Part shown: positions 2 through 63,382 of the stretch, piece by piece
Numbering within the stretch: the stretch's first letter is position 1
How the letters are laid out: every line of letters starts with the position of its first letter
From: Eledone cirrhosa
Lineage: Eukaryota
Reading direction: 5' to 3'
NCBI GenBank assembly: GCA_964016885.1
Contig: OZ024742.1
Coordinates: 151,776,001 to 151,840,000 of the forward strand
DNA: 64,000 nt
The notes under the pieces: model-generated
What the model saw: only the letters and a program-made list of their open reading frames with translations
Databases searched by the model: none
What the model was told of the DNA's origin: nothing
Made by a program: the position numbers and the translations under genes

Positions 2-1396
2 AATAAGGCACTAAATTACGCATTCAAACATACAGACCTAACTAGCAATGAAATGCACATTATATTATCGGCTAGGAAAACATTGATAGAATTTAATGAC
101 CAACTATGGACCTGAGCAGATAGAGATAGCAATTTTGACATTACTATGGGATCATCCGACTCAGCTCAGGTAACTGACCTTGTGGGCTTATTTTTAATCA
201 ATTCGCTGCATAGGAAAATACCTGGTACTACCGGAGGTTTATATAGAGATGACATGCTTTTACTTATTGATAATAATAACTCTGAACTAAATAGAAAAAG
301 AAAACAAATTACACAATTTTTTAATTACTTTAATCTAAAAATAGAAATTGAGAATAACCATAGATTAGTCAATTTCCTAGATATAACATTCAATCTCAAC
401 ACATGTCTTCACTATCCATTTCACAAGTTGAATGAAAACTTAAACTATGTCAGCTTTAACTCTAACCACCCCAGATCTGTTAAAAATACTATAGTAAACT
501 CTGTTCAAAAACGTATCTCTAGAATCTCGTCTAATAGAAAGATTTTCGACAAAAAAGCCCAATACTACAATGAAGCGTTAGCTAGAGCAGGATATAGTGA
601 TAAAATTATGTACATAGATAATGATAGACAAACTAAACAAAATAACAACTATTTTAATTACGGCCACAACCTTAACAACTATAATAGAAAGCATTACAAT
701 AATTCCAAAAGCCAAAAAAGAAATAGAACTAGGAACATAATATGGTTTGCCCCCCCTTTCTCACTAAACATTAAAACCCACATCGCTAAACTATTTTTTA
801 AAGCTCTTGATAATCGATTCCCTAGAACACATAGGTGTCACTCAATTTTCAATAGACATACTATAAAATTAACCTACTCATCCACCAAAAATTTAGCACA
901 AAATATTAATAGAATAAATAATAGGAATTTAAAACCTAGCGATAATAGCATAAATAATATACAAGTTAACAAATGTAACTGTAGAGATAGATCTAAATGT
1001 CCGTTAAATAACAACTGCTTAGTTAAAAATATAATATACAACTGTAATGTTAAAACGGACTTTAATTCTTTTAACTACGTTGGTTCCACATCGACGGAAT
1101 TTAAACTTCGCTATAATAACCACAAGAATTCTTTCACAGATCCAAGCAAAAAATCTTCAACAGCACTATCAGGCGTACTCTGGCAACTTAGGCATGATAA
1201 CGTTAGATATTCGACGGCTTGGAATATAGTCTCAAGAGGGATTCCTTTTAATTCATCCTCTGAGACATGTGACCTCTGCGCGGAGGAGATATTCTTTATA
1301 CTAAAATCTAAAAATTCCCTTAATCTACGGACAAATTTATTCAGTTGCTGCAAACATAGATTGAACTCAACTTTTAAATATAAATTTAAATTTTAA
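2..1396 (+). pseudogene. PLE reverse transcriptase + C-terminal GIY-YIG endonuclease (runs off window start; in-frame TGA at 113-115)
   Basis: YRDD catalytic motif; CNCR..CPL...C linker; IIY..YVG..FK.RY.NH GIY-YIG; CDLC..E and CKH terminal motifs. The frame is open upstream of 146 except for one TGA. Confidence 0.88.
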
Positions 1397-6239: not shown

Positions 6240-6800
6240 GACTTGATACCGAAGGGGAGTGGAGGTAGTTCTGACTATTCACAGAAGACACATTTCTGAC
6301 CCCGTCACTTCTCGTTTCTTTCTTAACCCACTCATCACCGCATTCAAGTGCGCCTGTAATATCCGTGGCCTCCTTGTGCACAGTTCCTTCTCCGCCTTCC
6401 CTAAGATTCCAGTCACTGTTCTCACTCCCTTTGTAATACATATTAAACATCACTACCCCCACATGTACGAACCATTTTTTCGCATTTGCGTCTCCTTAAC
6501 TTGCGTCTCTACCAACGTTTATGCCGTCTGGTATTCCCTTTGCGGGTCTATATATGTCGGACAAACAGGCTGCCATTTGCCGGCTCGATTCGCCGAACAA
6601 CTGAGGTACATACGACTGGGAAAACACACCCCTGTAGCGCGTCACGTCCATTCTCTCAACCACACTACTCAATAACTCACTGTCTCACGCCTCACTTTAC
6701 ACCACGGGTCCCCAGCCACACACATCAGGATAGAGTAGAATTTAATTTTTCGCCTTAGAACTACTTTTCTGAATGGACTCAATCCCTACTATATCCAGCA
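6240..6800 (+). pseudogene. Degraded PLE GIY-YIG endonuclease (Penelope/Neptune-type, distinct from the Naiad-like copies)
   Basis: NIRGLLVHS; TCVSTNVYAVW.SLCGSIYVGQTG..L.ARFAE.LR.I....TPVARH. Confidence 0.8.
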
Positions 6801-11050: not shown

Positions 11051-12761
11051 ATCACTATATGTATGTTCTTCTAGTTTTATAATTTCACAAATTTTTACCA
11101 ATAGAGAGAGAGTCGGTTTCTAACATAGACACAAGACACTCATTGGAATTTACACAACATCAACTAGGTAGATTATGTATGCATGCCTGCATGCATGCAT
11201 GCATGCATGTGTAGATATGGACGTTATTTTATGTGTGTATGTTTTGAGTTGTATATGTTTATGCTTTGTATCTGTACATGTGTATATGCAGTTATTAGAT
11301 GCAAAATTTTGGGAATGTTTTACATATTTTTACTTGTAATTTCCTAACTAGTTGTGTTCTTTCTGTTCCTGTGAAGCCTAGCTTCTCAAGATTGATTTGT
11401 ATTGAGGCAGTTACTAACATACCCCAGTGCCCCAATAATCACAGGCATACATCTGAAGGTGTAATCAGGGTGGAGTATCTGCAGATTCCTCATCAGATCT
11501 GCATAAATATTCTCCTTTTCGCTAATCTTTGATATTATATTGGCATTTGCCGGGCAGCTAGTTTGCGTTACTGTGCATCCTTTCTTTTCCATGTCCCATA
11601 TCATAATATCTGGTCTGTTATGCCTGCATTTTATTGGAGTTTTTACTGGAACATTCCACCAGTAGTCTTTCATATTATGTATATGGATGTCTTCCACATT
11701 GCTGTAGCTTTTAATGTGTTTATTATTGGGGCTATCTTTTCTACGGATTGCATTGTACAGTGTTTTGGCCACTACATCATGCCTCATAGGTAGATAGTAC
11801 CGCGATGATATCTTTGGGCTGCTGCTGATGACATGGGTGACATCTTCGATGTTAATTCTGCAGAGTCTGCACTTGTTATCACATCTAGGTGTTTTGCCTG
11901 CATCCCTATCTCTTTTGTGAATCTGGTATTTCGTGTTAATTTCCTGTTCTTGGATTGCAAAAGCGTATCCTTCAAAGTGGGAGCTAATATAGCGGTTGTT
12001 GGTCCAAGATAGACTACTTTCCTTATCTATATTACTCTCACTCTGGAGCTTCCTCGCAACATATCCATGCATGATTTTTTGCTGATAAGCATGCAGTTTT
12101 TCATCCATGGATTCTCTGCGATACTGCTGAGCGACTTCCCTGGGTGTGAGTTTTTGATTATCACACAGGGAATATCTCTCGAGGAGTTCCATCCCAACTC
12201 TCATGATCTTATCTGTTTCATGCAGATAGACATGCTCGAGAGACGGGCTCCTACGCTTCGAGGTTCGTAGATGTTGTTCATCTGTGATGATGTTATTATT
12301 TTCACGGTGATCTTGGAGGAATAAATTCAGGCAGGCTGTATACATCTTATACATCAGGCTCTGGCATGCAATGGTTCGATCGATTTTTGCCAAGTGGGAG
12401 TCTTTGTTCTTGGGCCTAGTAATGTTTGTCAACCATTCTGGTATAAGTGTATCTCCCTGAAGAACTTGTTGGTAGAGGTCAGCAAGATACCTCCGATAGA
12501 ATATCAGTTTTTTTGTACCAGTAGCCGACAATCATGTCTCTACCTGGTGTTTTCTTATCTTGGGGTTTTCCTATCACAGCCTCAAGAGTAGCCTCACTTA
12601 TTTCCTATGTTTTTGTTATAGTGTAGGAGCAATAGTTCTTTCGGATTTCTTTTAGCCACACTGCATCTTGGTTGAAATTCTTCTTTTCACCCCATATTTT
12701 TCCCCAAAAGGAATCTGTCTTTCTGGGATGGGGCCTCATCGACACTTATTATTTTGCTCTT

Positions 12762-12886
12762 TACGATCTGAGTTCAAATCCCGCCGATGTTGACTTTGCC
12801 TTTCATCCTTACGGCGTCGATAAAATAAAGTACCAGTAATGCAGTGAGTAATTGCTGGCCTTGTGCCTAAAGTACAAACAATTATT
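12762..12886 (+). mobile_element. 5'-truncated SINE
   Basis: Core and tail of the SINE family. Confidence 0.8.
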
Positions 12887-13590
12887 TTGTCTTCATATCT
12901 CTATAGAGTGATGTTTGGTTTCGTCTGAATCTTTTATTAAGCACTTTTCTTTCATCTACTTTCTTCATGTACCAGCGTTTTTCGCTATCAGCTCTCAATT
13001 TTTGTTTGAGGGTGATCAGCTTCTATTGAACAGTTATGGTTCTACTGTTACCAAACATCGTCTCTATTATATTTTTCACTCTTTGTTGGTGAGGAGTGAG
13101 TTTCTTTTGCGTTTGTTTGCATGTAAGTAGCATTGTCATATATCCTATGGTTTTTCGTAGGTCAGCAACCTTTTTTTCTATTTTAGTTATATATGATGGT
13201 ATTTTTTGTGGTGTTTACTACTTGTTAATATATCTACTATCACCAAGATAATGTTTCACTGTCGTTTCTAGGGCATATAAATAGGCGTTGATTTGCCAAA
13301 ATGTTGGGGATTTTATCCGTCGTAAATATTCATCCCCTATTTCGTCAATAACACGTGATATTTCATTATTTGGTTTTTTATTAAATATTGTTGTTTCAAT
13401 ACGTTCAGCAAGAGAGATATTTATACACGAATTAATTAATCTCTGGAAGAATTCGTTGAGGGAAATTTTCAATTGTTTATACTTTTGATTATTATCATTA
13501 TCGATAGTATTTTCCACAATAGTCGAGAGTGGCTCGGATAGTACACGTGGTGTCAAATGTCTTCGATTATTATTATTATCGATAGTGGAG

Positions 13591-13783
13591 GGCGGTGGAT
13601 TGGCAGTATCGGTGGAGGGTCGGACGCCATGCTTTCCAGCATAGTTACGTCCCTTTACAATCTGAGTTCAAATCCCGCCGAGGTTGACTTTGCCTTTCAT
13701 CCTTACGGGGTCGATAAAATAAAGTACAAGTAATGCACTGGGTAATTGCTGGCCTTGTGCCTAAAGTAGAAACAATTATTATT
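13591..13783 (+). mobile_element. Full-length SINE with TSD attattattatcgatagtg
   Basis: Head, core and tail present; flanking direct repeat. Confidence 0.88.
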
Positions 13784-14417
13784 ATCGATAGTGTTTTACC
13801 CAGCATTGGAGGTAGACTTAGATGGTACACGTGGTGTCAAGTTTCTTACAGGCATAGTTGTTTCAAGGCACTGTTCAACCTGGCTGCTAAGAAGTCTAGT
13901 AGCATGGCGACCTGTAGCACGTGCTGTTGATCCCATGTTTGTTGTGGGGGACTTACAATTAATAATATTTATTTTATTTTTACGTTCAACAAACGTCGCT
14001 TGTTGGGGTAATTGTTTCGCTGTGAAGTGATTTAGCTCTGGGTCGCAGTGTAGCTTCGGTCTGTTCATATAGCCAATGGAGGCATTGTGTTTTGCAATTT
14101 TATAACAATTAAATAAATCATTATTAAGTTCGCAACTCCAAGAGAAATGCGATTTATAATTTCGTTTTTTTCTGTAGCTACAACTGAATAAATTTTGTTT
14201 ACCTTTCTCGTTGTTTTTCTTCGGTACTTCCTTAATGTTGTTGTTATTGATGTTCTGTTCAGCCATGCTGTTTGTAGCAAATCCTTGTAAAATGAATTAT
14301 GTATTTAGTCGGATATCTCTACGAATTCGAATAAAAGGTGTCTTCAGTAGATATAGTTAGAAGAATATCCAGTTATTCAACATGACTGGTAGTTGTGACA
14401 TTATGTATGTATGTATG

Positions 14418-17139: not shown

Positions 17140-19310
17140 ACATATGATTAATATTGAAGTGTTGGGTCGATGTCATATTGAATCTCTCATAATTCAATAT
17201 AGATCGCATTGGAGCAGACATGTTATAAGAATGGCAGGTCATTGTATTCCTATGCAATTAGCAATACAAAGCACGATTTAGTCAAAGGGAAAGGACCAAG
17301 GAATAAACTAAAACTCATGTATCAAGACTGCATCAAAAGTGCTTATAAGGTCAAAAACAAGAAAAGATAACTGGGAAGACATTGCCTAAGATTGATCATT
17401 TTGGAGGAAAAACAGTGTTTAATGGAAAACAGGAAGTTGAAGAATCTCGTGTGATGCATGAAAAATTAAATAGGGGTCTGAGGAAGGGTCTACACAATAT
17501 TACCTTACCTGGATTTTCAGATGTTCAAAATGACTTTATGTGCAATGTGTGGCCAAATTTGCCTCAATAAAGTTTGTCTTAGAAAACACCATAGAAGCAG
17601 CGTACAAAATGTTGTCGATTATGGTCTCTTTTGCATTTCTTCCTGTTGGAAGTGTGGAAAAAAATGTTGGTAGCCCGGTGGACTCAAACATCAAGTGAAA
17701 GCAAAACAGCGAACCAAATTGGAAGTACTGTTCATCCCTGCAGCTTATGGAATGTAAATCCTTGGCAGGGCTAAAGTGTCATGTTCGTTCCACCCATGTG
17801 TGAGAGAGGAATCGGGAACAACCGACTTTAGAGGAAGTGGCAGTAGCTGTCTCGAAGCTGAACCGTGGAAGGTGTCCAGGTATGGATGGCATACAGGCAG
17901 AGCTCTTACAATATGGTGGTGAGAAACTTCTGTGACATCACTCTTTTTTGGCAAGATATAGGCCAGTGAATCCGTTCATGAAGACTGAAAAGATGCAGTA
18001 ATAGTAGTCTTGTAGAAGGGAAGGGGTAACAAGAAGGAATTGTGAAAACTATAGGTGTATATCTTTGCTTTCTGTCGTAGGAAAAATTTTATGTAGGGTG
18101 CTTCCGGACCGTTTGCTGACATACATTGAAGATGCGGCACTACTGATTTGATCTCAGCTAGACAGCTTCAGGAGAATTGCATGGAACAGGGTTTGGATCT
18201 GTATCAGTTTATTCTCGATCTGACAAAAGCTTTTGATACTGTTAACAGAAATGCTCTGTGGAAGGTTCTCCAGAAACGTGGATGTTCTGATGAGTTTCAT
18301 GCTTTGGTTAGGTCTTTCCATGATGACATGAAGGCTTGGGTTAATGTCAGAGGTATCATGTCAGAGTATACCTCAGTGAAAAATGGAGTAAAGCAGGGGG
18401 ATATTCCGGCACCGACCCTATTTTCCATATACTTTGCGATGGTTTTCTATATTTTATTCAGGAATTGCAAGCATGGTGCTTACATCTACTATTGAACCTC
18501 TGGCAGTATATTTAACATCAGGCGCTTTGCTTTAAAACAAAAGAATTTACCTCTATCATAAGAGACCTTTTGTATGCAGATGATTGCGATCTTATAGCGC
18601 ACACAGAGACTGATATGCAACACATTTTGAATGGATTTTCTGATGCTTACACTGCCCTAGGATTGACTATCAGTCTCAAGTAAATCGTTATCATGTACCA
18701 ACCTGCCCCTGGTAAGCAGTGCAATGAACCAAATATATATGTGTATGGTAAACGACTTGGAGAGGTTGATCAGTTAGTTAAAGGAAAACGACCTCCACAA
18801 AAACGAAAAAAGAGGTATACGGATTTGTTGAAAGCCTCCTTAAAAGACGCTAACATCTCTGCTGATACATGGGAAAGCGTATCTGTTGATCATCGTAAAT
18901 GGAGAAAGATTGTACATGAAGGCAAAGCTGCTTTTGAAGCATCTTTAATCGCATACGAGAAAGCAAAAAGGGATGTAAGGAAAGGCATTGCTGTTACATT
19001 TCCAAACATGCAACGTCTGTGCAAGACTCTGCCTCAGCAAAGCTGAACTCGAAAGTCGTCTTCGCAATCATAAAGTGAGATCAGTGGTTAACTACTAGGC
19101 TACTGTCGGATATGCTACTCATCATACCTGTTAAGCATGTGGAAAAGAGTGTAGATCAGCAGGAGGGCCCAAACGACATGCAAAAGTACATGACGACCAG
19201 CTACAGCCGTCAATTGCCAGTGAATGTTTTTATCATGGTTGCCAACTCAGTGCAAGACATTTTAGATTATTGGCTGGGCTGTAAAGTTTCATCCGATTGC
19301 AGCAATTATT
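17140..19310 (+). mobile_element. Degraded RTE (BovB-like) LINE fragments
   Basis: ARQLQE.C.EQ..LY..F.DLTKAFDTVNR..LW; GVKQG...APTLF; LYADD; 3' fragments GKRPPQ.RKKRY.D.LK. Confidence 0.85.
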
Positions 19311-36538: not shown

Positions 36539-37476
36539 CTATCCGTTAGGGTATAATGTGGGGCTGTAATACAGGAAAGTTTTGGGCAATTTATGTTTAC
36601 AAGCCGAAATTGCCTCAGATTTTTTGTTTAAGATGTGGTCTGAGGCGTAGAGTATTTCCAGGGCCACAGCGGCGCAGAGGTCACATGGTCTTTTATTTCC
36701 GTTATACGATCTAGCCCTAGCTAGGATCTCCCAGTGTAACTTATATTGGGTGTGGTTGTCTTTTAGACTCCAGATATAAGCTGAAAGTGACGTCATATTC
36801 CTTCTTAGAGGGTAACGAAAAGAATGGGTATGCATGTAAAGACGCTGCTTGAATTTATTGGCGGTTAACCCTATGTAGGCCCTACAGGACGTGGGTGTTT
36901 CAACCTTACATTTGTAGACAATGTTACTAGAGAGGCATTTCCCGGATAGGGCGCAATCAACCCGATTCCTACAATTACAGTTAGTACAAACTACAGAGTG
37001 CACGTGTTGCTACGGCTAGGTAGTTTAGCTAAATTTGAAGCTGTGATGTTATGTGCAAGGTTAGGAGTCGTAGAGTAACAAACTTTAATAGTATTTCTAT
37101 TAACAATTTTACTATATTATGTGTAGGGGGAAAATGCTTCGTAATAAGGGATAGAAAGATCTTAGCTAATGGTGTGGCCATCTCCATTTTATATGGTGGG
37201 TTATACCATATAATGCATCGGGATCTATTTCATCTAGGTCTATTCTCGTACTCTGTATATGCTACCTTATCGACAAATCCACTCCGGGAAAGAGCTTCAT
37301 TGTAATATGTGGAATGGTCGTTGAAAATACGCTCGTTAGTAGATAGACTGGAAAGCCTCAACGAAACGTTTCTTACCAGGTTCTTGGTTATGCTGGCAGG
37401 ATGGTTGGAATGCTTACTTATGTAATTAAGCGTATCATTCGGCTTTCTATACGGGTAATACAAGCCATTCGATAAA
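36539..37476 (-). pseudogene. PLE thumb + GIY-YIG endonuclease remnant
   Basis: YRKPN..YI..SNHP; IIWY.PPY; CNCR..C.L.GKCL..NIVY..YIG.T..FKQR..H; CDLC; CKH. Confidence 0.9.
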
Positions 37477-40950: not shown

Positions 40951-42202
40951 TATGTGGTCAGACAAACACACATAGTTTCTCTCACACATATATAGTCTCA
41001 CACAAGTTCACACATATATATACACATTATACACGCTTACACAGTAGATTACCCATATCCAACAACATCAGTGTTGATTTGATCTGTAAAAAATGACAAT
41101 AAAATCACACTCGCATCAGACTCTAACGTTTTACATAACACCACACACTAAAGAACCACCTACACACTTCTGAGCGGATACACACACAAAAACAAAGACA
41201 CATATGTACACACAAATTAATTAACTTAATCATCATACTACTGAATGAAAACTAAAATTTTGCCTTGGATTCGCTATTCTCAATAATCTATTGGGAAAAA
41301 TTGAATTCAAATACGTTGGAAGAGCTGGTAATCGATGGGGAAATTCAAGACAAAATTCATGCACAACAATAACACATGTAAATGCTAGAAATAAATCCTA
41401 CTGTTTTGTTAATATGCGTTCATCTTAATTCTATTTGTAACTACTGCACGAATTACTGATTACAGAACCCTCTAAGTATAACCCTATGATCGACCTTCTG
41501 ATATATATATATAGAAATATTAAAACAATGAAATTAAATAAAAAACTGTTAATTCATAGTAAAACTCATTATTTTATGATCGTTTCTGGGGGGGGGGTAG
41601 TTCCCTGTATGTTCATTCAATTATTGATCTATGTAAAACATATTACAAAATATCATAGTAAGAAAAAGATACATACGTCTTCACTACCAGCCGTCTTCAG
41701 AAATAATGAGTTTTGTTTATTGAAAAACATACATATGAATAAGTAAGGTTTTTATAACCAGGTTGAAATTAACCAATGTTCAGAATGGAAAGGGACAGTA
41801 TAAATCCTTAAGGTTGGTGGTAGTAGATAAGGTATCAAATGTCTTTTAAGAAAAGAAATGAAAGTTGCTAGTGTAAATGAAATTTTAACGGCTGCTATTT
41901 TTAGTAGCGAGAGATTGACCTGTCCACCTTGCTTTCAGTCTGTGCACACGGTACTAGACAAAATTGTTTCATCATTCATTTGTTGGGGCAGTTTTGTATG
42001 GCGCCAGTTTGTATTTTGAACTCGGCAATCTTATATTCTCCGAGAGAGAAAAGCCTTCTGACGAGGATCCCTTTCTCAATGGAAATCCGCTTGGATTATC
42101 TATTTGTTTTGGGATCTGAAACCGCAGTAAAGGCTCATACAGTAAGTACAGTGACTTTTTAAAGATGTATTTAAACATTTTTTCTTTATTTGCTTTTCCT
42201 CG

Positions 42203-42259
<57 letters not shown>

Positions 42260-43468
42260 GTACCCACACACCCTCGTACACCACCAACTCTACACACCCT
42301 ACCCCCACTAACCCCCACTCACACCTGCATTCCACCCCTCCCCACCTCCCGTATACTAACACCCACTAACACCTCTTCACCAAACTACACACACACCATT
42401 ACACCACATTCCCTCCATAGAACCACACACACCCTTCTCTCCCCGCTCCACACTCACTCATCCCACTAACACCCCTACTAATACACACACACACACACCC
42501 CCACACACCCACCCTCCTCCTTCCAACTCTCACACCTACCCATCCTCGCCTCCCTACCATTCCGCCGACTGCTGCTATGCCCATCCGACCACTGTCTCAG
42601 CACTCCCACTGCTGACCACTTCCTGTTGCGCGCGCACCCCACATCTCTCCTCTTCCGACCACCGCTTCTTGGATTACCCACACGCGTTATTGACTTCTAA
42701 CCCAAATCTCCAAACATCCGTGTAACTTACCAACTTTTCAACCATCCTCTTACACCATCACCTATATAACTCACCCACACACACACCCCAAAAAAAGTTT
42801 TTTATCCACATGCCACCCACACCCACAACACGCTTAAACCACACACACGTGCTTCCCACCACATATTTACACCCTCAGCCTCCTGATTCCTCTCCCCCCA
42901 CCCCCCTATCCACACACGCGCAGACCCTCCGACCCACAAAAACAGCCCCACACACACCTTCCTGAACATGCAACCCCGTTCTTCCCCCAACCCTCACTTT
43001 CACATACACACACACACACACACACACGCACACCTAACCACACACACCACCTTCAGCCCTCCCCGCTCGGACACCCCGTCTCCCTCTCCCCACTCCACCC
43101 GACACCACCTCTACTCACCCCACACCTTTCCACCACCTGTTTACCCCCCTTTTAATTTCAGTTTATTTTGATCATGCCTTTATTTTTAAATTTTCTCATT
43201 CCTTGTATTTCGATCATGCTTTATTTTTATTTATTATTTATTATATTTTTGTCTTTATTTGTTAATTTTTCATTCGCACCGTCTCCTTTCGCTATATGTC
43301 TCTCCACCACTCCCCTACACACCTTTTGAACTCTGTTCCCACACACTTCTCAGCTGAAGAAGGGCTTATGCCCGAAACGTCGTCCCCCACCTACCCCCCA
43401 CTCTCCTGAGCGTGAATTTAATAAACATTTGTCGTACTGCCTCTCTGTTCTGTCCCTGTTCAATTTTT

Positions 43469-43470
<2 letters not shown>
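42260..43470 (+). mobile_element. C-rich PLE 3' remnant with a minimal hammerhead motif at 43354-43384
   Basis: CTGAAGA-a-gggc-ttat-gccc-GAAACGTC, then AATAAA and (AT)n. Stem I is not convincingly paired. Confidence 0.6.
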
Positions 43471-43536
<66 letters not shown>

Positions 43537-44259: not shown

Positions 44260-44698
44260 GCTCTCTCTCTTTCTCTCCCTCTACCTTTCTTTCTCTCTTC
44301 CTTTTCTACTATATCTAAATACAAAGAAACCATAATTCAGCCATTCGTTCTGAAGAATTGGTGGTACGAACAACATTTGAAAATTGAGTATCTGCAAATT
44401 AATAACTACCAATTTGCATATAGCATGACTAGGCTGTGTAACTACTGAAGAAACATTTGTAAACACTTTGAATAAATTACCTTTTTATGATGTCTACCTT
44501 TTTTATTAATCATTCTTTATCTACACTCCGGAATATAGAAGAATCGGAAACCAAGTTTCTTTAACTGTTCTTTTGTAACTCGTTGAGTAACGCCTCACCG
44601 TACGTTGACTCTATCTAGTGTAGTAATTAACCATTACTGCATTCAGGATAATCCTAAGCATTTCTTGCTTAACCTAATATATATATATATATACATAT

Positions 44699-45612
44699 AG
44701 TTTTCATAAAATAGTCTTACGACTATACAGAGCATTTGAAGTTTTTCGAAATTGAAGGATAGGTTTCTTGAACATTATTTTATCATGAGTTAAGGCTCTA
44801 TTGATTTTTCCCTGGATTTCACTAAATTCTGTGGATGAATTTATATCCTGATTCTCTTTAGGATGAGTTTAAATTATTTTTCCCACATCTTACGTTAACT
44901 ATTTTTCCCATTTTGACGCTATAGTCACTTATATACTATGGAATGCTGTTCGGTTTTCGCTGCAGTGTTTTCTATACCTTTCATTTATATATTTATACTC
45001 GGATTTTTCCTCGAGTGCTTAAATTATTTGTGACTAATCCCGTTTTTTTGTTTTTTTATAAAAAACTGCGATAATATTGCATTTTGCTGAACTCCTTACT
45101 GTAGAGTTTTTTTCGGAATGTTTTTGACTGTTGTTTCTTGTAAACAAACTTTCGTCTCATTTTGCCGTCAATAGCCATTTTTTCCTCATGTGCGTTTTTC
45201 GTGATCACGCATGATGTTGGACTGGCCAGCTTTAGAATTCCCTTTTTGGCATATTAATCTGCGAGAATCCTGGTTATCGAGTTGAGCTCTGCTGATGATG
45301 AATCCCAACCGTGACCATCTCCGCTGAAAGTTTTCATGAAATAGTCTTACGACTATACAGAGCATTTGAAGTTTTTCCAAATTGAAGGATAGGTATCTTG
45401 AACTTTATTTTATCATGAGTTAAGGCTCTATTGATTTTTCCCTGGATTTCGCTAAATTCTGTGGATGAATTAATATCCTGATTCTCTTTAGGATGAGTTT
45501 AAATTATTTTCCCCACATCTTACGTTAACTATTTTTCCCATTTTGACGCTATAGTCACTTATATCCTATGGAATGCTGTTCGCTTTTCGCTGCAGTGTTT
45601 TCTATACCTTTC

Positions 45613-45615
<3 letters not shown>
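44699..45615 (+). mobile_element. Retrozyme-like tandem element, unit 630 nt (~1.45 units)
   Basis: 44699-44985 is repeated at 45329-45615; non-coding; (AT)n flanks. Confidence 0.85.
45286..45363 (+). ncRNA. Type I hammerhead ribozyme, canonical core, stable stem III
   Basis: gctctg-CTGATGA-tgaa..ttca-t-GAAA-tagtc-ttac-gacta-TA-cagagc; predicted cut after 45357. Confidence 0.88.
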
Positions 45616-45681
<66 letters not shown>

Positions 45682-45882
45682 ATGCGATACAAATCTTACG
45701 TAAATAGTATAATAATATTGCTAGTTTTGGAGTAAAGAGACAAAAGTATTCGCTTATTATTTTACTATTATATTATTTTAATGGAAATTGCTTGCACGGG
45801 ATTAACTTAGATATAGACAGACACAAAAACATATACATACAATTACACAAGGAAGGACACAGACACCCATACACACTACATA

Positions 45883-56958: not shown

Positions 56959-57871
56959 TAATGGACATGGTTATACGGAAGAGGAAGGAGAACCGTACGA
57001 ACGCGCATGCGCAGAAACCGTCACTTCACAGAAGAAATACTAAAAAGCGTGCGAGAAGTGTAAGGGAGATAACTGCGAAAGTCCGAAAAGTACCTAGTTG
57101 ATAAGAAAATTAGGATATTGTTGTGATTCAATCCGGAACTTTGTAGTTAGGTCATAAATACCGCTCCATCTTTAAAGGACACAAAGATACTCCTGCGCTA
57201 AAGACATGAAGGCCCACATCACCAACAGCCCTAAGAGCAACACCCCACCAGGGTGCTCTTGCCGTAAGCACGAAGCTTGTCCCCTTCAACAGCAATGAAA
57301 CACACCCGCTGTAATTTATGAAGCTGTGGTCACTTCCAACCGATCAAACCAACCACAGTAGGTCAAATCCTATGTGGGTATGGCGAGGGCCGATTTAAGG
57401 AACGCTTCCTGAACCACCAGTCGACCTTTAGGTATCCCGACAGACGTTCATCCACGAAACTCGCGAGCCACGTATGGCCCCTCAAGGACTCAAGTATAGA
57501 CTACTTCATTCAATGGAAAGCCATCACTAAGTCCAAGTCATACGCAAGTGGAAATCCGTCGTGTGGACTATGTATTGATGAACGAATAAATATTCTAAAG
57601 AGATTATGCAATAGTGATTGCCTAAACACGACAACTGAATTCTTCACACGTTGTCCACACGTTTTGAAATACCTCTTACATAACTACAAAGTTCCGGATT
57701 GAATGACAACAACATCCTAATTTTCTTATCAACTAGATACTTTTCGGACTTTCGCAGTTATCTCCCTTACACCTCTCGCACGCTTTTTAGTACTGCTTCT
57801 GTGAAGTGACGGTTTCTGCGCATGCGCGTTCGTACGGCTGTCCTTCCTGTTCCGTGTAACCATGTCCATTA

Positions 57872-57909: not shown

Positions 57910-58303
57910 GTATGTTGAACTAACTGTTGTCTAACGTCCCATGGACTGAGTGCTCTACCACTACGGATATTACCTTCCAGTGTTCTAACACTATATATAT
58001 ATATATATATATATATATCATAAAACATGTCTATAGAATCAATCAGATATTAAAATATATACTATTTCTTCCTCTAATCAGCATAATTAACCATATACAT
58101 AATCAAATCCAGCAAGCTTTAAGAGTAAATTTTCTAACGGGGAAATCTCCGACAAATAATTGATTGCAGCTAGTTCGCGTTAACTCCGTTCCATTATTTA
58201 TCAAACACTTCGGCAGCATGTAGAATCCGATCAAATATATCGTCAACCACACGTAATTAGTAGTAAAATTAAACTTAGAAGAAATGCGCACATACCGTAA
58301 TTA

Positions 58304-58383
58304 TATCTCTACCATGGTTTCTTCCTTGTTTAGGACATCCAAATAATATGGACTTGCCCGAGTCAGGTTATCATCAGGAGATA
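58304..58383 (-). ncRNA. Type I hammerhead, canonical core, large domain II
   Basis: tatctc-CTGATGA-(49 nt)-GAAAC-catg-GTA-gagata; predicted cut between 58310 and 58309. Confidence 0.85.
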
Positions 58384-58992
58384 AACTCAGAAATAGACAT
58401 TTAATTTCTCAGACCGACCCCGCCAAATTTAGATTCAAAAATGGCTAAGATCGCTATGTAGCTGTGTACCAGCCAGAGAGAAAGCGTGTGTTTGGTCGCT
58501 TACGGCGGGTAGGTATGCTGCTAGAAAGCGCAGCCATATAACGCCAAATTTAATCTCAACCGATAGGGAGATTATTAAATATAGAGGTTATCACATACAT
58601 AAAATTAAATTAAATTAAATCAAGGATACATATATGTGTTGCAACTGTTCACTTTTAAGCTCAATGAAGAATTAATAAGTTAAAATAAAAAAATCAGAGC
58701 ATTATATCATAAAACATGTCTATAGAATCAATCAGATATTAAAATATATACTATTTCTTCCTCTAATCAGCATAATTAACCATATACATAATCAAATCCA
58801 GCAAGCTTTAAGACTAAATTTTCTAACGGGGAAATCTCCGACAAATAATTGATCGCAGCTAGTTCGCGTTAACTCCGTTCCATTATTTATCAAACACTTC
58901 GGCAGCATGCAGAATCCGATCAAATATATCGTCAACCGCACGTAATTAGTAGTAAAATTAAATTTAGAAGAAATGCGCACATACCGTAATTA

Positions 58993-59073
58993 TATCTCTA
59001 CCATGGTTTCTTCCTTGTTTAGGACATCCAAATAATATGGACTTGCCCCGAGTCAGGTTATCATCAGGAGATA
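58993..59073 (-). ncRNA. Type I hammerhead, second tandem copy
   Basis: Same fold; predicted cut between 58999 and 58998. Confidence 0.85.
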
Positions 59074-59164
59074 AACTCAGAAATAAACATTTAATTTCTC
59101 AGACCGACCCCGCCAAATTTAGATTCAAAAATGGCTAAGATCGCTATGTAGCTGTGTACCAGCC

Positions 59165-59229
<65 letters not shown>

Positions 59230-59269
59230 GATATTAAACAAATGGAAACTATATTTATAAAACCATATT

Positions 59270-59335
59270 TATTTCGTTATATATATTTCTGGGATATCAT
59301 ATTAAAAATATGTTATGCCTTCCTCAGACAAAATA
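59270..59335 (-). ncRNA. Type I hammerhead (left arm of palindrome)
   Basis: Reverse complement of 59481-59546. Confidence 0.78.
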
Positions 59336-59480
59336 CAATACATAAGCTGTTTTATAAATAATTAGTGACATACCTTTTGAGAATGCAACTTCCTTTTAAA
59401 AAAAAATCAAATTTTTTTAAAAGGAAGTTGCATTCTCAAAAGGTATGTCACTAATTATTTATAAAACAGCTTACGTATTG

Positions 59481-60066: not shown

Positions 60067-63000
60067 CTATCTATCTAAGGCGGGTAAAATTCCCGAGATC
60101 CATGGACGAGTTCTCTCCAGCGGTCTCTGTCCCTAATTATCGCTGCCATATCCTGCATCTCCAACAGACCAGTGTCTGTCCTTAGGGCATCAACATATGT
60201 TAACCTTGGTCTTCCTCTTCTAGTGTGTCAATGTAGGGGCTCCCAAAGGAGCACTGAGTGCAATGTCAACTCTGGATGTCGGTGAGCATGTCCAGCCAAC
60301 CTCAGTCTCCTCTGTGTCACTTTTGAGCTGACTTTTGGGATGCTCCCATACAGCTCTGAGATTTTCATCCTCAGTGTATACTGATTAATGTTCAGAGCCA
60401 TCCTCAGCATTCTCGTGTAGCACCCATCCAACATCTGAGTGAGTCTCTTGGTCAGTGTCCAAGTCTCAGACCCATACAGCAGCACAGACTCCACTACAGC
60501 AATGAAGAGGCGGATTTTCAGGTCTCTACGAAGGTCCGACTTCCACACCGATCTCAAGCTGTGACACGCCGCCCAGGCCTTGCTCTTCCTCTCAACCACA
60601 TCATCTTTCGTATTCCCAATCTTTGCTCCCAAATACAGGAAGTCCTCAACCAATTCCAGCGGCTTCCCGCCTACATTAGTGATCCCCTCTGGCTTCTCAA
60701 CATTCTCTACCAGATATTTTGTTTTAGTCTCATTCACGCTCAGCCCCACACTCATCGACACAGTCTCAACCTCCCGCATCAAATCCTCTGCCTCCTTCAC
60801 TGTATTTGTCACCAAAACTATGTCGTCGGCAAATTCAGCATCCGATACCTTTTTCGCCCCAACTCTCCTGCTCTGAGCCGGTGCTACAGTAAAGCCAGTG
60901 TCCTGGTGTTTCTCCAGTGCAAGGCGCATACAATAGTCCACTACGGTGATAAAAAGGTAGGGAGCCAATGTATCTCCCTGGAGCACTCCAGCCAGTATCT
61001 CAAAGAACTCTGTCATCCCATCAGGTGTAATGACTTGGGCTTTGGTGTTGGTGTAGAGCAGTGATATCAGGTCCACTATCTTCTTGGGGATTCCATAAGC
61101 CTGTAAGATCTTCATCAGGCAGTAACGGTCCACAGAATCAAAGGCCTTCCTAAAGTCAATGAAAACCATGACCGCAGGAAGGCACTTTGCTCTAGCTCCC
61201 TCTAATATCCTCCTCAGCATCAGGATGTGACTGGTGGTTTATCTACCCTCTCTGAAGCCGTTCTGATTGTCCCTGAGCTTCTTCTCCATCTCAGGCTGGA
61301 TCCTGTTAAGAATCATCCTGTTGAGGGTCTTTGCCACAAGTGACGTCAGTGAGATCCCCCGGTAGTTGTTGGTGTTAGAGAGATCTCCCTTCTTTGGCAC
61401 TGGGACGATGTTACTGATCCTCCACTGATTCGGGGCAACTCCTTTCTCCAGTGCCCCGTTACAGAACCCCAGGATGATATCATCAAAATCACACCTCTTC
61501 ATCACCTCTGATGCCACTCCATCTTCTCCATGAGCCTTGCCCTCCTTGATCTTCTTCTTGGCTCTCTGAAGCTCCTCTCTGGTGAAGGGCTCTGTCTCAA
61601 CATCCAGTTCCTCAAACAGCCGCCTGATCTCCCCAGTGCTCTGGGCTGTGGAGGGTGGCTCTCCTAGTAGGGTCCTAAAATGGTCTAGCCATTTCCTCTT
61701 CCTATCCTCGGGCCCCGTTCCCTGGATCTGACTCGAACACCTTTTCTTCCTCCCTGTGATCTCGTTGATGATCATCCAGCTCTCCTTACATCCAGATCTG
61801 TCAACCGCTCACTCCACACTTCTGATCTTCTCTATCAGTGCCTCCTCTCTGACCTCAGTGTAAGCGGTACAGAGCTCTTCCCTCATCACCTCCACAGTCT
61901 GCATCCTCTCCTCCGTAGGATCAGCATAGAATTGGTCCCTGGCAGCTTTCAGGTGTTCTCTGGCTGCACACACTTTTGGGCTTGCAGAGCTGACGTGCTT
62001 CCCTTTGTTCTTTTTCCTCAGCACCAGGGTTTCACTTGCTTTCGCCACTGCATTGGTGAAGTGCCCGTACCTCCTCGTCACACTCTCCTCAGTCCATCCA
62101 ATCTCTCTCTCCTCTGACTCTCCACACAGAGCACTAAACCTGTTTCTCACTTCCACTGTGAACCTCTCCTGTAGCTTATCATCTTCCTTGAAAGCTCCCC
62201 AGTCATAGATTGTTCTCCGGGGCTGAGCCTTGCTCTTTCTTAAGCTCACGCGGACCTCACTTATAACAAGCCGGTGGTCACTACCCAGTGTACTGAAATA
62301 GCTGTATGGTTCCGTGTTCAGAACACTATTCCGCCACTTTTTCTTCACCAGAATGAAATCAATCTGGGACTTGGACAGGTGCATATCTGAGATGTAGGTC
62401 CACATCTTCCCCAGATTCTTCCTAAACCTTAGGTTGGTCGCCATCAAGTTCGCCTCCAGCAGGGTGTCTCTCAGTAGTCTTCCATTTCGGTTGGTGTTGT
62501 TATGGAAGTACCAGCAAGGATCTTCAGTGCCCTCCTTACTCAGATGTGCATTGAAGTCCCCCAAAACAAGCAGGATATTGTGTGCCTGAGTGGTGTTGAG
62601 AGCTCTACACACCTCATCATGGAACTCCTAGGCATTCACATCACTGTCCCCCTCGGTTGGACTATAGGCTGAGATGACTGTCAGTCTTGGGTTTCCATTG
62701 AAGGTCACCCTCAACACTCGCGGGGAGATAGGCATTATTTCCCTCACCAACAGATTGGTTTTTGCACTGAACACGAAACCCACTCCTCCTACTGCAGCAT
62801 TTGTTGTGTTCTTCACTGCCGATGTAGTGATGAGCTGGCTCTTCCTCCCGATCATCACACTCCTCACGGGCTCATCGTGTAGAATCCTGTGTTCTTGGAT
62901 CGCAAGTATCTGTATACCACTCTCCTCGAACAGATGTCCCAACTCCTCTCTCTTCTCCAGCGTTCGAATAGTCCTCACATTCAAAGTGCCCATTTTGATG

Positions 63001-63382
63001 GCTCTTCTGCAGGACAAAACTGCATTCTTTATATTTGTCTCAGAGACAGCTGATCCATCATCCACTGGCCCTCTCTGTGGCTCTAAGCCAGCAGAGTCAT
63101 AACGACCAGGCTTCTCCTTGACAGTGTAATTAGGGGCTCTAACCCTAGTGCTGTTAGATCGACTCTCCATATTTCTTTTCAATGGCTGACAATACCTTAC
63201 CGGCGCCACTCGAATAAGGTAGTTATTTAACTCATAAATGGAGCCCTAACAAGTACTACCACCCCGGGCCAGGGCAGACCTGGGAGTCATGACAACTAAG
63301 GGGTAACTCCACATTCCCCACATCTCCTGAACTCCCGAACTGGAGCCTTGCCACTGGATGTAGTTTAATGTCATACCCAGGC
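60062..63382 (-). mobile_element. Full-length RTE-clade LINE (~3.3 kb) in (AT)n, (TAGA)n tail
   Basis: 5' UTR of about 210 nt, single APE+RT frame, short-repeat tail. Confidence 0.93.
60075..63170 (-). pseudogene. APE endonuclease-reverse transcriptase, one frame with four premature stops
   Basis: GTLNVRT, AIQEHR, GDFNAH, QIDFIL, SDHRL; NYRGISL, FIDFRKAFDS, GVLQGDTLAP, FADD, YLG. Stops at 62628, 61809, 61239 and 60228 are all in the same frame. Confidence 0.93.

What the first reader, a model, noticed from the sequence alone, without database searches (positions are those of the whole stretch)
44699..45615. Third unrelated tandem family (630-nt unit) with a monomer-competent hammerhead
Seen: about 1.45 units. 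The complete HHR has a perfect 6-bp stem I and a 6-bp stem III with tetraloop, so it needs no dimerisation, and cleaves at AUA. The upstream unit begins inside the ribozyme, about 28 nt before the equivalent cut site (44727), so the insertion spans cut-to-cut (630 nt) plus overhangs, as expected if RT ran more than once round a circle.
Basis: partly seen in the sequence, partly recalled or inferred. Interest (0 to 1): 0.75.

Follow-up and report, generated by a model that had tools for sequence, protein, structure and literature searches.

The report
Ribozyme-bearing retroelement targeting TA repeats
This is one of thousands of copies of a non-coding, hammerhead-ribozyme-bearing repeat that sits in TA microsatellites of an animal genome, and the ends of the copies show that copying starts at one fixed internal point and runs straight through the predicted self-cutting site, which likely means a circular RNA was copied by a Penelope-type retrotransposon enzyme.

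Summary
The repeat is real: 287-nt direct repeats 630 nt apart (278/287 identical), one complete type I hammerhead at 45286-45363, (TA)n on both sides. It belongs to a dispersed non-coding family (2179 exact 3' ends, at least 1734 intact cleavage junctions; unit 614-640 nt). All copies share one 3' end 258 nt downstream of the predicted cut, have variable 5' ends, and form precise head-to-tail tandems: the Penelope-like (PLE) insertion signature. Only 8 copies stop at the cut site. The ribozyme is under purifying selection across subfamilies (1/34 versus 142/545 sites changed; stem II covaries). Best reading: an animal non-LTR retrozyme, copied from a ligated circle by a PLE enzyme priming on (TA)n (0.6); an uncleaved multimeric transcript remains possible (0.22). 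No RNA data exist here, and the driver PLE is not tied by homology. Known kind; moderate interest.

The parts
44677..44698 (+). upstream (TA)n tract, remnant of the target microsatellite; 5' junction
   Evidence: sequence; 66 of 98 sampled copies have a TA-like 5' flank
44699..44985 (+). 5'-truncated upstream unit (last 287 nt of the unit); carries only the 3' half of the hammerhead, with G12 changed to A at 44708
44986..45615 (+). one complete unit in the family's own register (630 nt here; 614-640 nt in 53 units); non-coding
   Evidence: longest ATG frame 41 aa (+) and 67 aa (-) in a natural two-unit stretch
44986..44991 (+). TATATA at the unit origin, directly 3' of the fixed end in a tandem or circular RNA; predicted to anneal to the nicked (TA)n target
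   Evidence: sequence; same junction in the tandems; role inferred
45043..45050 (+). private T-run expansion that makes this unit 630 nt
45286..45363 (+). type I hammerhead: stem I 45286-91/45358-63, CUGAUGA 45292-98, stem II 45299-302/45333-36 with 30-nt loop, unpaired U 45337, GAAA 45338-41, stem III 45341-46/45351-56, H17 = A45357; predicted cut 45357|45358
45560..45565 (+). internal TATATA-like site, the family's main 5'-truncation hot spot
   Evidence: 46 of 99 sampled insertions are 51-67 nt long and end here; at most 14 copies use it as a 3' end
45598..45615 (+). fixed 3' end of the family, 258 nt downstream of the cut; inferred start of reverse transcription
45616..45683 (+). downstream (TA)n tract

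Best explanation
This is a dispersed, non-coding tandem retroelement with a type I hammerhead in each unit, one fixed 3' end and variable 5' ends inside (TA)n, and it is likely an animal retrozyme whose RNA is predicted to cut itself out of tandem transcripts, be ligated into a ~625-nt circle and be copied by a Penelope-type RT/endonuclease. Steps: (1) a locus with two whole ribozymes (about 960 nt or more; 4 of 99 sampled are that long) is transcribed [inferred]; (2) double self-cleavage and ligation by a host ligase give a monomer circle [inferred from PMC7229834, where this was shown for coral, mussel and axolotl elements]; (3) a PLE protein nicks (TA)n and starts reverse transcription at one internal site, 258 nt 3' of the ligation site, where the RNA continues with UAUAUA that can pair with the target [fixed end and target shown; enzyme and pairing inferred]; (4) the RT passes the ribozyme junction and the unit origin and falls off at variable points, joining the target at short TA matches [shown as a length distribution]; (5) some insertions later grow by unequal crossing-over into satellites [shown: period-2 and higher-order arrays, one of 51 units]. 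The window's copy is a 1.46-round product and a dead end, having only one whole ribozyme.
For: Fixed 3' end: 2179 exact ends followed by (TA)n; 36 of 38 loci picked by the cleavage junction, with both ends in view, end at the same base, 35 followed by TA. No stop at the cut: 1734 intact junctions vs 8 with (TA)n joined there although the site offers a TATA match; 0 of 99 end at 251-265 nt, 33 pass it, 14 exceed 640 nt. Ribozyme kept by selection on source lineages: shared substitutions at 1 of 34 core/stem I/stem III sites vs 142 of 545 other sites, Fisher p=0.0008 (53 units); N7 free; stem II 10.2:11.2 switches U-A/C-G together. Units of one insertion share alleles: 794 of 836 unit pairs agree at 47 polymorphic sites (my sum); L175 has 3.4 units with no substitution between them. 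PLE marks: partial tandems, inverted 5'-truncated copies in L024, L114, L161. A young PLE-type family is present: 34 of 98 scored matches have open frames of 730 aa or more, 481 exact pLTR ends in (TA)n, minimal hammerhead upstream of its ends, nearest Atlas clusters carry HTH_animal, GIY-YIG, RVT_1.
Against: No RNA evidence: no RNA holder listed, so cleavage and circle are untested. The window's subfamily lacks N10.1, a state seen in two separate clades that both spread, and its local fold is weaker (median P(stem I) 0.26 vs 0.91 and 0.74). L007 carries G5C in both units, which a self-cleaved monomer should not transmit unless conversion followed. Position 311 differs between units of one insertion in 6 of 17 pairs. 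Hammerhead-less Naiad PLEs also form partial tandems and non-autonomous Chlamys form multicopy tandems (PMC8557442), and hammerhead mutants did not impair PLE insertion in vitro (PMC11167929). No sequence homology to the one PLE family tested.
Confidence: 0.6

Rival explanations
1. The template is an uncleaved linear read-through transcript of an existing tandem locus; PLE RT starts at the same fixed site (internal junction or the (UA)n tail) and runs back through however many units the source holds. The ribozyme cuts rarely or acts at another step.
For: Explains seamless passage of the cut site equally well. Long arrays exist as possible sources. The delta-10.1 core spread twice and L007 has G5C in both units. 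In vitro, unprocessed RNA was the dominant PLE substrate (PMC11167929, main text read).
Against: Unit-to-unit differences are mostly private: 187 differences at 131 sites in 19 loci with no set shared between loci beyond position 311. The 51-unit array is not the source of the window's subfamily (different loop III). Does not explain why core and stems are conserved over about 20% divergence, nor how new alleles become fixed in all units each generation without conversion.
Confidence: 0.22
2. The template is the linear cut-to-cut monomer; RT starts internally, reaches the cut 5' end after 258 nt and jumps precisely to the 3' end of the same or a sister molecule.
For: Needs an active ribozyme (fits) and gives identical units (fits); template jumping by target-primed RTs is known (recalled, no call).
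Against: Only 8 ends at the cut vs 1734 intact junctions; no insertions or deletions at the junction among the 117 ribozymes aligned, although that extraction required a near-intact junction.
Confidence: 0.1
3. Same RNA, but mobilised by a microsatellite-targeting LINE rather than a PLE.
For: No homology to the tested PLE; LINE-like RT frames are present in the window (family labels recalled).
Against: Precise partial tandems, inverted truncated copies and a start site downstream of a hammerhead match PLEs (PMC8557442, PMC11167929).
Confidence: 0.05
4. A satellite or the 3' UTR of a coding element, spread at the DNA level.
For: DNA-level array growth is seen.
Against: One fixed end with graded 5' truncation; 66 of 98 5' flanks are TA-like and only 9 flank pairs share homology up to the junction, no two with the same partner sequence; no coding remnant.
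Confidence: 0.03

Closest known systems
Animal non-LTR retrozymes (Cervera & de la Pena 2020, PMC7229834; Li, Clavereau & Pollet 2026, bioRxiv 10.64898/2026.07.22.740005)
   Same: Non-coding, AT-rich tandem repeat with one type I hammerhead per unit, thousands of dispersed copies, monomers to long arrays, co-occurring PLEs; a U-U pair at the base of stem II as in axolotl HHR_Amex2 occurs in several subfamilies.
   Different: Unit larger than the 150-450 bp of the 2020 paper but inside the 51-972 bp of the 2026 preprint; helix III of 6 bp instead of 1-2 bp; 30-nt loop II; strict (TA)n targeting; a mapped fixed start 258 nt from the cut; a core variant without N10.1. Circular RNA not shown here.
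EN+ Penelope-like elements and their pseudo-LTRs (PMC4209133, PMC8557442, PMC11167929)
   Same: 5'-truncated copy ahead of a full copy, inverted truncated copies, microsatellite targets, internal RT start a short way downstream of a hammerhead.
   Different: No ORF; full canonical-type hammerhead rather than the minimal dimer-dependent form of animal PLEs; no sequence homology to the PLE family tested; the start site is followed by target-like UAUAUA, whereas the anole PLE started at a non-homologous site.
Non-autonomous Chlamys elements such as MRC1 (PMC8557442, passage)
   Same: Non-coding PLE passengers forming pLTRs and multicopy head-to-tail insertions.
   Different: Those resemble their autonomous partner at the 3' end and mostly lack hammerheads; here no partner homology was found and a conserved hammerhead is present.

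Membership tests
type I hammerhead ribozyme | core CUGANGA, GAAA and UH in order | tested here: met
   core invariant among shared substitutions in 53 units, N7 varies
type I hammerhead ribozyme | three helices with helix I open-ended | tested here: met
   covariation U-A/C-G at 10.2:11.2
type I hammerhead ribozyme | N10.1-N11.1 pair (or tolerated U-U) next to the core | tested here: not met
   this copy and 135 exact cores lack N10.1; 1020 family cores have A or U there. PMC3088659 rejected hits mispaired here but found U-U tolerated
type I hammerhead ribozyme | loop 1-loop 2 tertiary contact | not tested
   an extended stem I with a bulge can be drawn by eye; not modelled
type I hammerhead ribozyme | self-cleavage | not testable with these tools
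   needs a cleavage assay
non-LTR retrozyme | non-coding tandem unit with a type I hammerhead in each unit | tested here: met
   (family level)
non-LTR retrozyme | two consecutive complete hammerheads ('active' copy in the 2026 preprint) | tested here: not met
   this locus has one complete and one truncated, G12A-mutated motif; other loci meet it
non-LTR retrozyme | many dispersed copies, GC below 50% | tested here: met
non-LTR retrozyme | expressed as monomeric circular RNA | not testable with these tools
   no RNA holder listed
non-autonomous Penelope-like element | partial tandem with 5'-truncated upstream copy; inverted truncated copies | tested here: met
non-autonomous Penelope-like element | fixed 3' end in a microsatellite target | tested here: met
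non-autonomous Penelope-like element | young autonomous PLE with the same target in the genome | tested here: met
   Pfam and PDB sequence searches gave nothing, so the PLE label rests on the Atlas neighbours, visible motifs and anatomy
non-autonomous Penelope-like element | sequence homology to an autonomous partner's pLTR or 3' end | tested here: inconclusive
   none to the one family tested; the search had 90,656 candidates and other PLE families were not examined

The most novel reading that the evidence does not exclude
This family is a natural record of rolling-circle reverse transcription of a retrozyme circle: it maps the RT start to one base 258 nt past the ligation site, shows priming at a target-like UAUAUA chosen over a second such site 56 nt away, and contains an undescribed hammerhead core lacking N10.1 that arose twice and still cleaves well enough to keep the cycle going.
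Probability: 0.25. Interest if true: 0.65.

Novelty: new member of a known kind. Interest (0 to 1): 0.42.

Why it matters
How animal retrozymes are primed and inserted is proposed but not shown in the papers read (PMC7229834; the 2026 preprint says the mechanism remains to be elucidated). This family supplies a defined start base, a defined target, a candidate enzyme family with intact frames in the same genome, and natural ribozyme variants, so circle versus linear template and the need for cleavage become directly testable in a PLE target-primed assay. As a kind of element it is already known.

Tried and rejected
Rfam: no hammerhead hit in the window listing or in 44690-45615 at E<=10. RNA evidence: no RNA holder listed; two runs of unrecorded kind hold the family as contigs and say nothing on expression. 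The 51-unit array as source of the window's subfamily: rejected, different loop III and higher-order repeats. Second RT start ('tail') at the internal TATATA: rejected as common, at most 14 matches, and 5 of the 10 viewed were TA expansions inside whole units. Idea that canonical cores are masked in the circle and delta-10.1 cores exposed: suggested by 5 units, refuted on 50 of 53. RNA-editing signature in copies: none, A>G rate 0.0036 not raised. Homology of unit to the PLE (blastn, tblastn): none. Pfam and PDB for the PLE protein: none. Earlier notes on this genome or sequence: none. Literature searches for this family in cephalopods (a guess at the host from its microsatellite load, recalled and untested) gave no paper whose title or abstract describes it (listings only); searches for a core with an extra base before G12 gave none in listings or in the passages of PMC3088659. 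The supplement of PMC7229834 could not be read and may hold mollusc examples.

Full report
Observation. The 917 nt at 44699-45615 are a 287-nt direct repeat at lag 630 (278 of 287 identical) between two (TA)n tracts. AUA is a natural triplet (abstract start of PMC1636495 in the listing). Rfam misses the motif. Three details were overlooked: an unpaired U at 45337 before G12, a G12-to-A change in the upstream half ribozyme (44708), and that 630 nt includes a private T-run expansion.

Family. A DNA search gave 3115 candidates, 39 scored. An exact 3'-end pattern followed by (TA)n has 2179 matches, reversed control 0. I fetched the first 100 listed; one (L115) was cut on the wrong side and dropped; two pairs are not independent (L105/L106 one array; L036/L037 an inverted pair). 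Of 99, 13 are 50 nt or shorter, 46 are 51-67 nt and end at an internal TATATA, 7 are 68-250 nt, none is 251-265 nt (the cut lies at 258), 33 are longer, 14 exceed 640 nt, 4 exceed 900 nt (four loci with internal deletions were set by hand). 66 of 98 5' flanks are TA-like, and 9 flank pairs share other repeats up to the junction, with no common upstream body. As these loci were chosen by their 3' end, I took 40 more mostly by the cleavage junction (from the 100 listed): of 38 with both ends in view, 36 end at the same base and 35 run into TA. The unit is non-coding and 614-640 nt in 53 units.

Register and cut site. The fixed end is 45615, 258 nt downstream of the cut, and in tandems it is followed at once by TATATA or TATA and then unique sequence. 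Genome-wide, 1734 junctions read through the cut site and 8 have (TA)n joined there. The internal TATATA is the main 5' junction but serves as a 3' end in at most 14 cases (pattern of different degeneracy, so a rough contrast). Start choice therefore needs more than a TA match. Internal initiation downstream of a hammerhead is what the one biochemically studied PLE does (PMC11167929, parts 1-2 of 4 read), though there the start was not homologous to the target.

Ribozyme. Across 53 units, substitutions shared by 3 or more loci touch 0 of 12 core, 0 of 12 stem I and 1 of 10 stem III sites against 142 of 545 elsewhere (p=0.0008; units are related, so the p value is a guide); N7 takes all four bases; pair 10.2:11.2 is U-A or C-G in nearly all canonical-register copies, a change that CpG decay could ease. 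Most copies have A or U at 10.1 opposite U11.1 (1020 exact cores). The window's subfamily lacks that base (135 exact cores, about a third in one array). The state occurs in two separate clades of the tree, while the shortest branches belong to a clade with a normal A-U pair. PMC3088659 (passages).1-11.1 the most conserved pair after 15.1-16.1 and found U-U tolerated; I found no account of a missing 10.1. PMC4209133 (parts 1-2 of 4) says animal type I hammerheads usually have a 1-2 bp helix III, so the 6-bp helix is unusual and does remove the usual need to dimerise; whether this particular core cleaves is open.

One template per insertion. Units in one locus agree at 794 of 836 comparisons over 47 polymorphic sites (sum; L018 and L020 are neighbours and count twice); L175 has 3.4 units with no substitution between them; differences within 19 young loci are mostly private. 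Against a clean monomer bottleneck: position 311 is discordant in 6 of 17 pairs, and L007 has G5C in both units. Long arrays show period-2 or higher-order structure (L153, L157, the 51-unit array at G000:C3:161.512-161.544 Mb), so DNA-level growth follows insertion, yet these arrays keep the fixed 3' end and, where seen, a truncated 5' end in (TA)n.

Driver. The frame at window 116-1396 belongs to a large young family: 90,656 candidates, 34 of 98 scored with open frames of 730 aa or more, 0.5% mean divergence among the 30 best-scoring copies (biased low) against 1.7% for the window's subfamily. [quoted passage not shown] A Neptune- or Nematis-type PLE is likely (linker described in PMC8557442, passages). 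It shares target and anatomy with the element but no detectable sequence, so it is a candidate, not the proven partner.

Mechanism and rivals. A conserved self-cleaving motif plus almost no ends at the cut is best reconciled by cleavage followed by ligation, as shown for other retrozymes (PMC7229834, parts 2-4 of 6 read; supplement unavailable): 0.6. Uncleaved multimeric read-through fits the same genomic pattern and is helped by the delta-10.1 and G5C cases and by hammerhead-less PLE tandems: 0.22. Seamless template jumps 0.1, a LINE driver 0.05, DNA-only origin 0.03. Earlier scan notes from other genomes report ribozyme-less tandem elements with the same insertion pattern (unchecked), which is a further reason not to read tandem structure as proof of a circle.

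Verdict. A new family of a known kind, the animal non-LTR retrozymes, argued to be non-autonomous PLE derivatives (bioRxiv 10.64898/2026.07.22.740005, parts 1-3 of 5 read). The value lies in the mapped start site, the cut-site statistics and the natural core variant. Interest 0.42.

Noticed in passing
window 116-about 2600 (+): Copy of a very abundant young PLE-type family (RT plus C-terminal GIY-YIG-like domain, long AT-rich 3' region); many genomic copies have intact frames of about 745 aa, tandem and inverted layouts, and at least two 3' end points in (TA)n.
   Followed up: partly
window 58018-59167 (-): Unrelated hammerhead tandem element, unit about 690 nt, about 1.7 units, ending in (TA)n; short helix III.
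   Followed up: no
window 59230-59340 (-): Fragment of the young PLE's pseudo-LTR with its minimal hammerhead, ending in (TA)n, directly beside the 690-nt element.
   Followed up: partly
window 42050-42204 (+) and 43350-43471 (+): Two further hammerhead-like motifs, each 80-100 nt upstream of a (TA)n tract; the second is of the minimal PLE type and follows a 900-nt C/A-rich stretch.
   Followed up: no
G000:C3:161512235-161543861 (L207-L210): 51-unit, 31.6-kb satellite born from one insertion of this family, with higher-order repeats, still bounded by the fixed 3' end and (TA)n.
   Followed up: yes
unit positions 310-311 (window 45302-45303): Stem II/loop II boundary varies among and within insertions far above background (11 of 30 units T>C at 311, 4 of 30 A>G at 310); no double variant among the 100 cores listed. 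Unexplained.
   Followed up: partly
family-wide: Nearly half of the sampled insertions are 51-67-nt stubs between two TA tracts, which would look like interrupted microsatellites to repeat annotators.
   Followed up: yes
window 36539-37009 (-), 57322-57702, 6247-6675 (+): Further endonuclease-like frame fragments resembling PLE C-termini (by eye).
   Followed up: no
window 60228-63245 (-), 11386-14296 (-), 18130-19046 (+): LINE-like RT and endonuclease frames in pieces.
   Followed up: no
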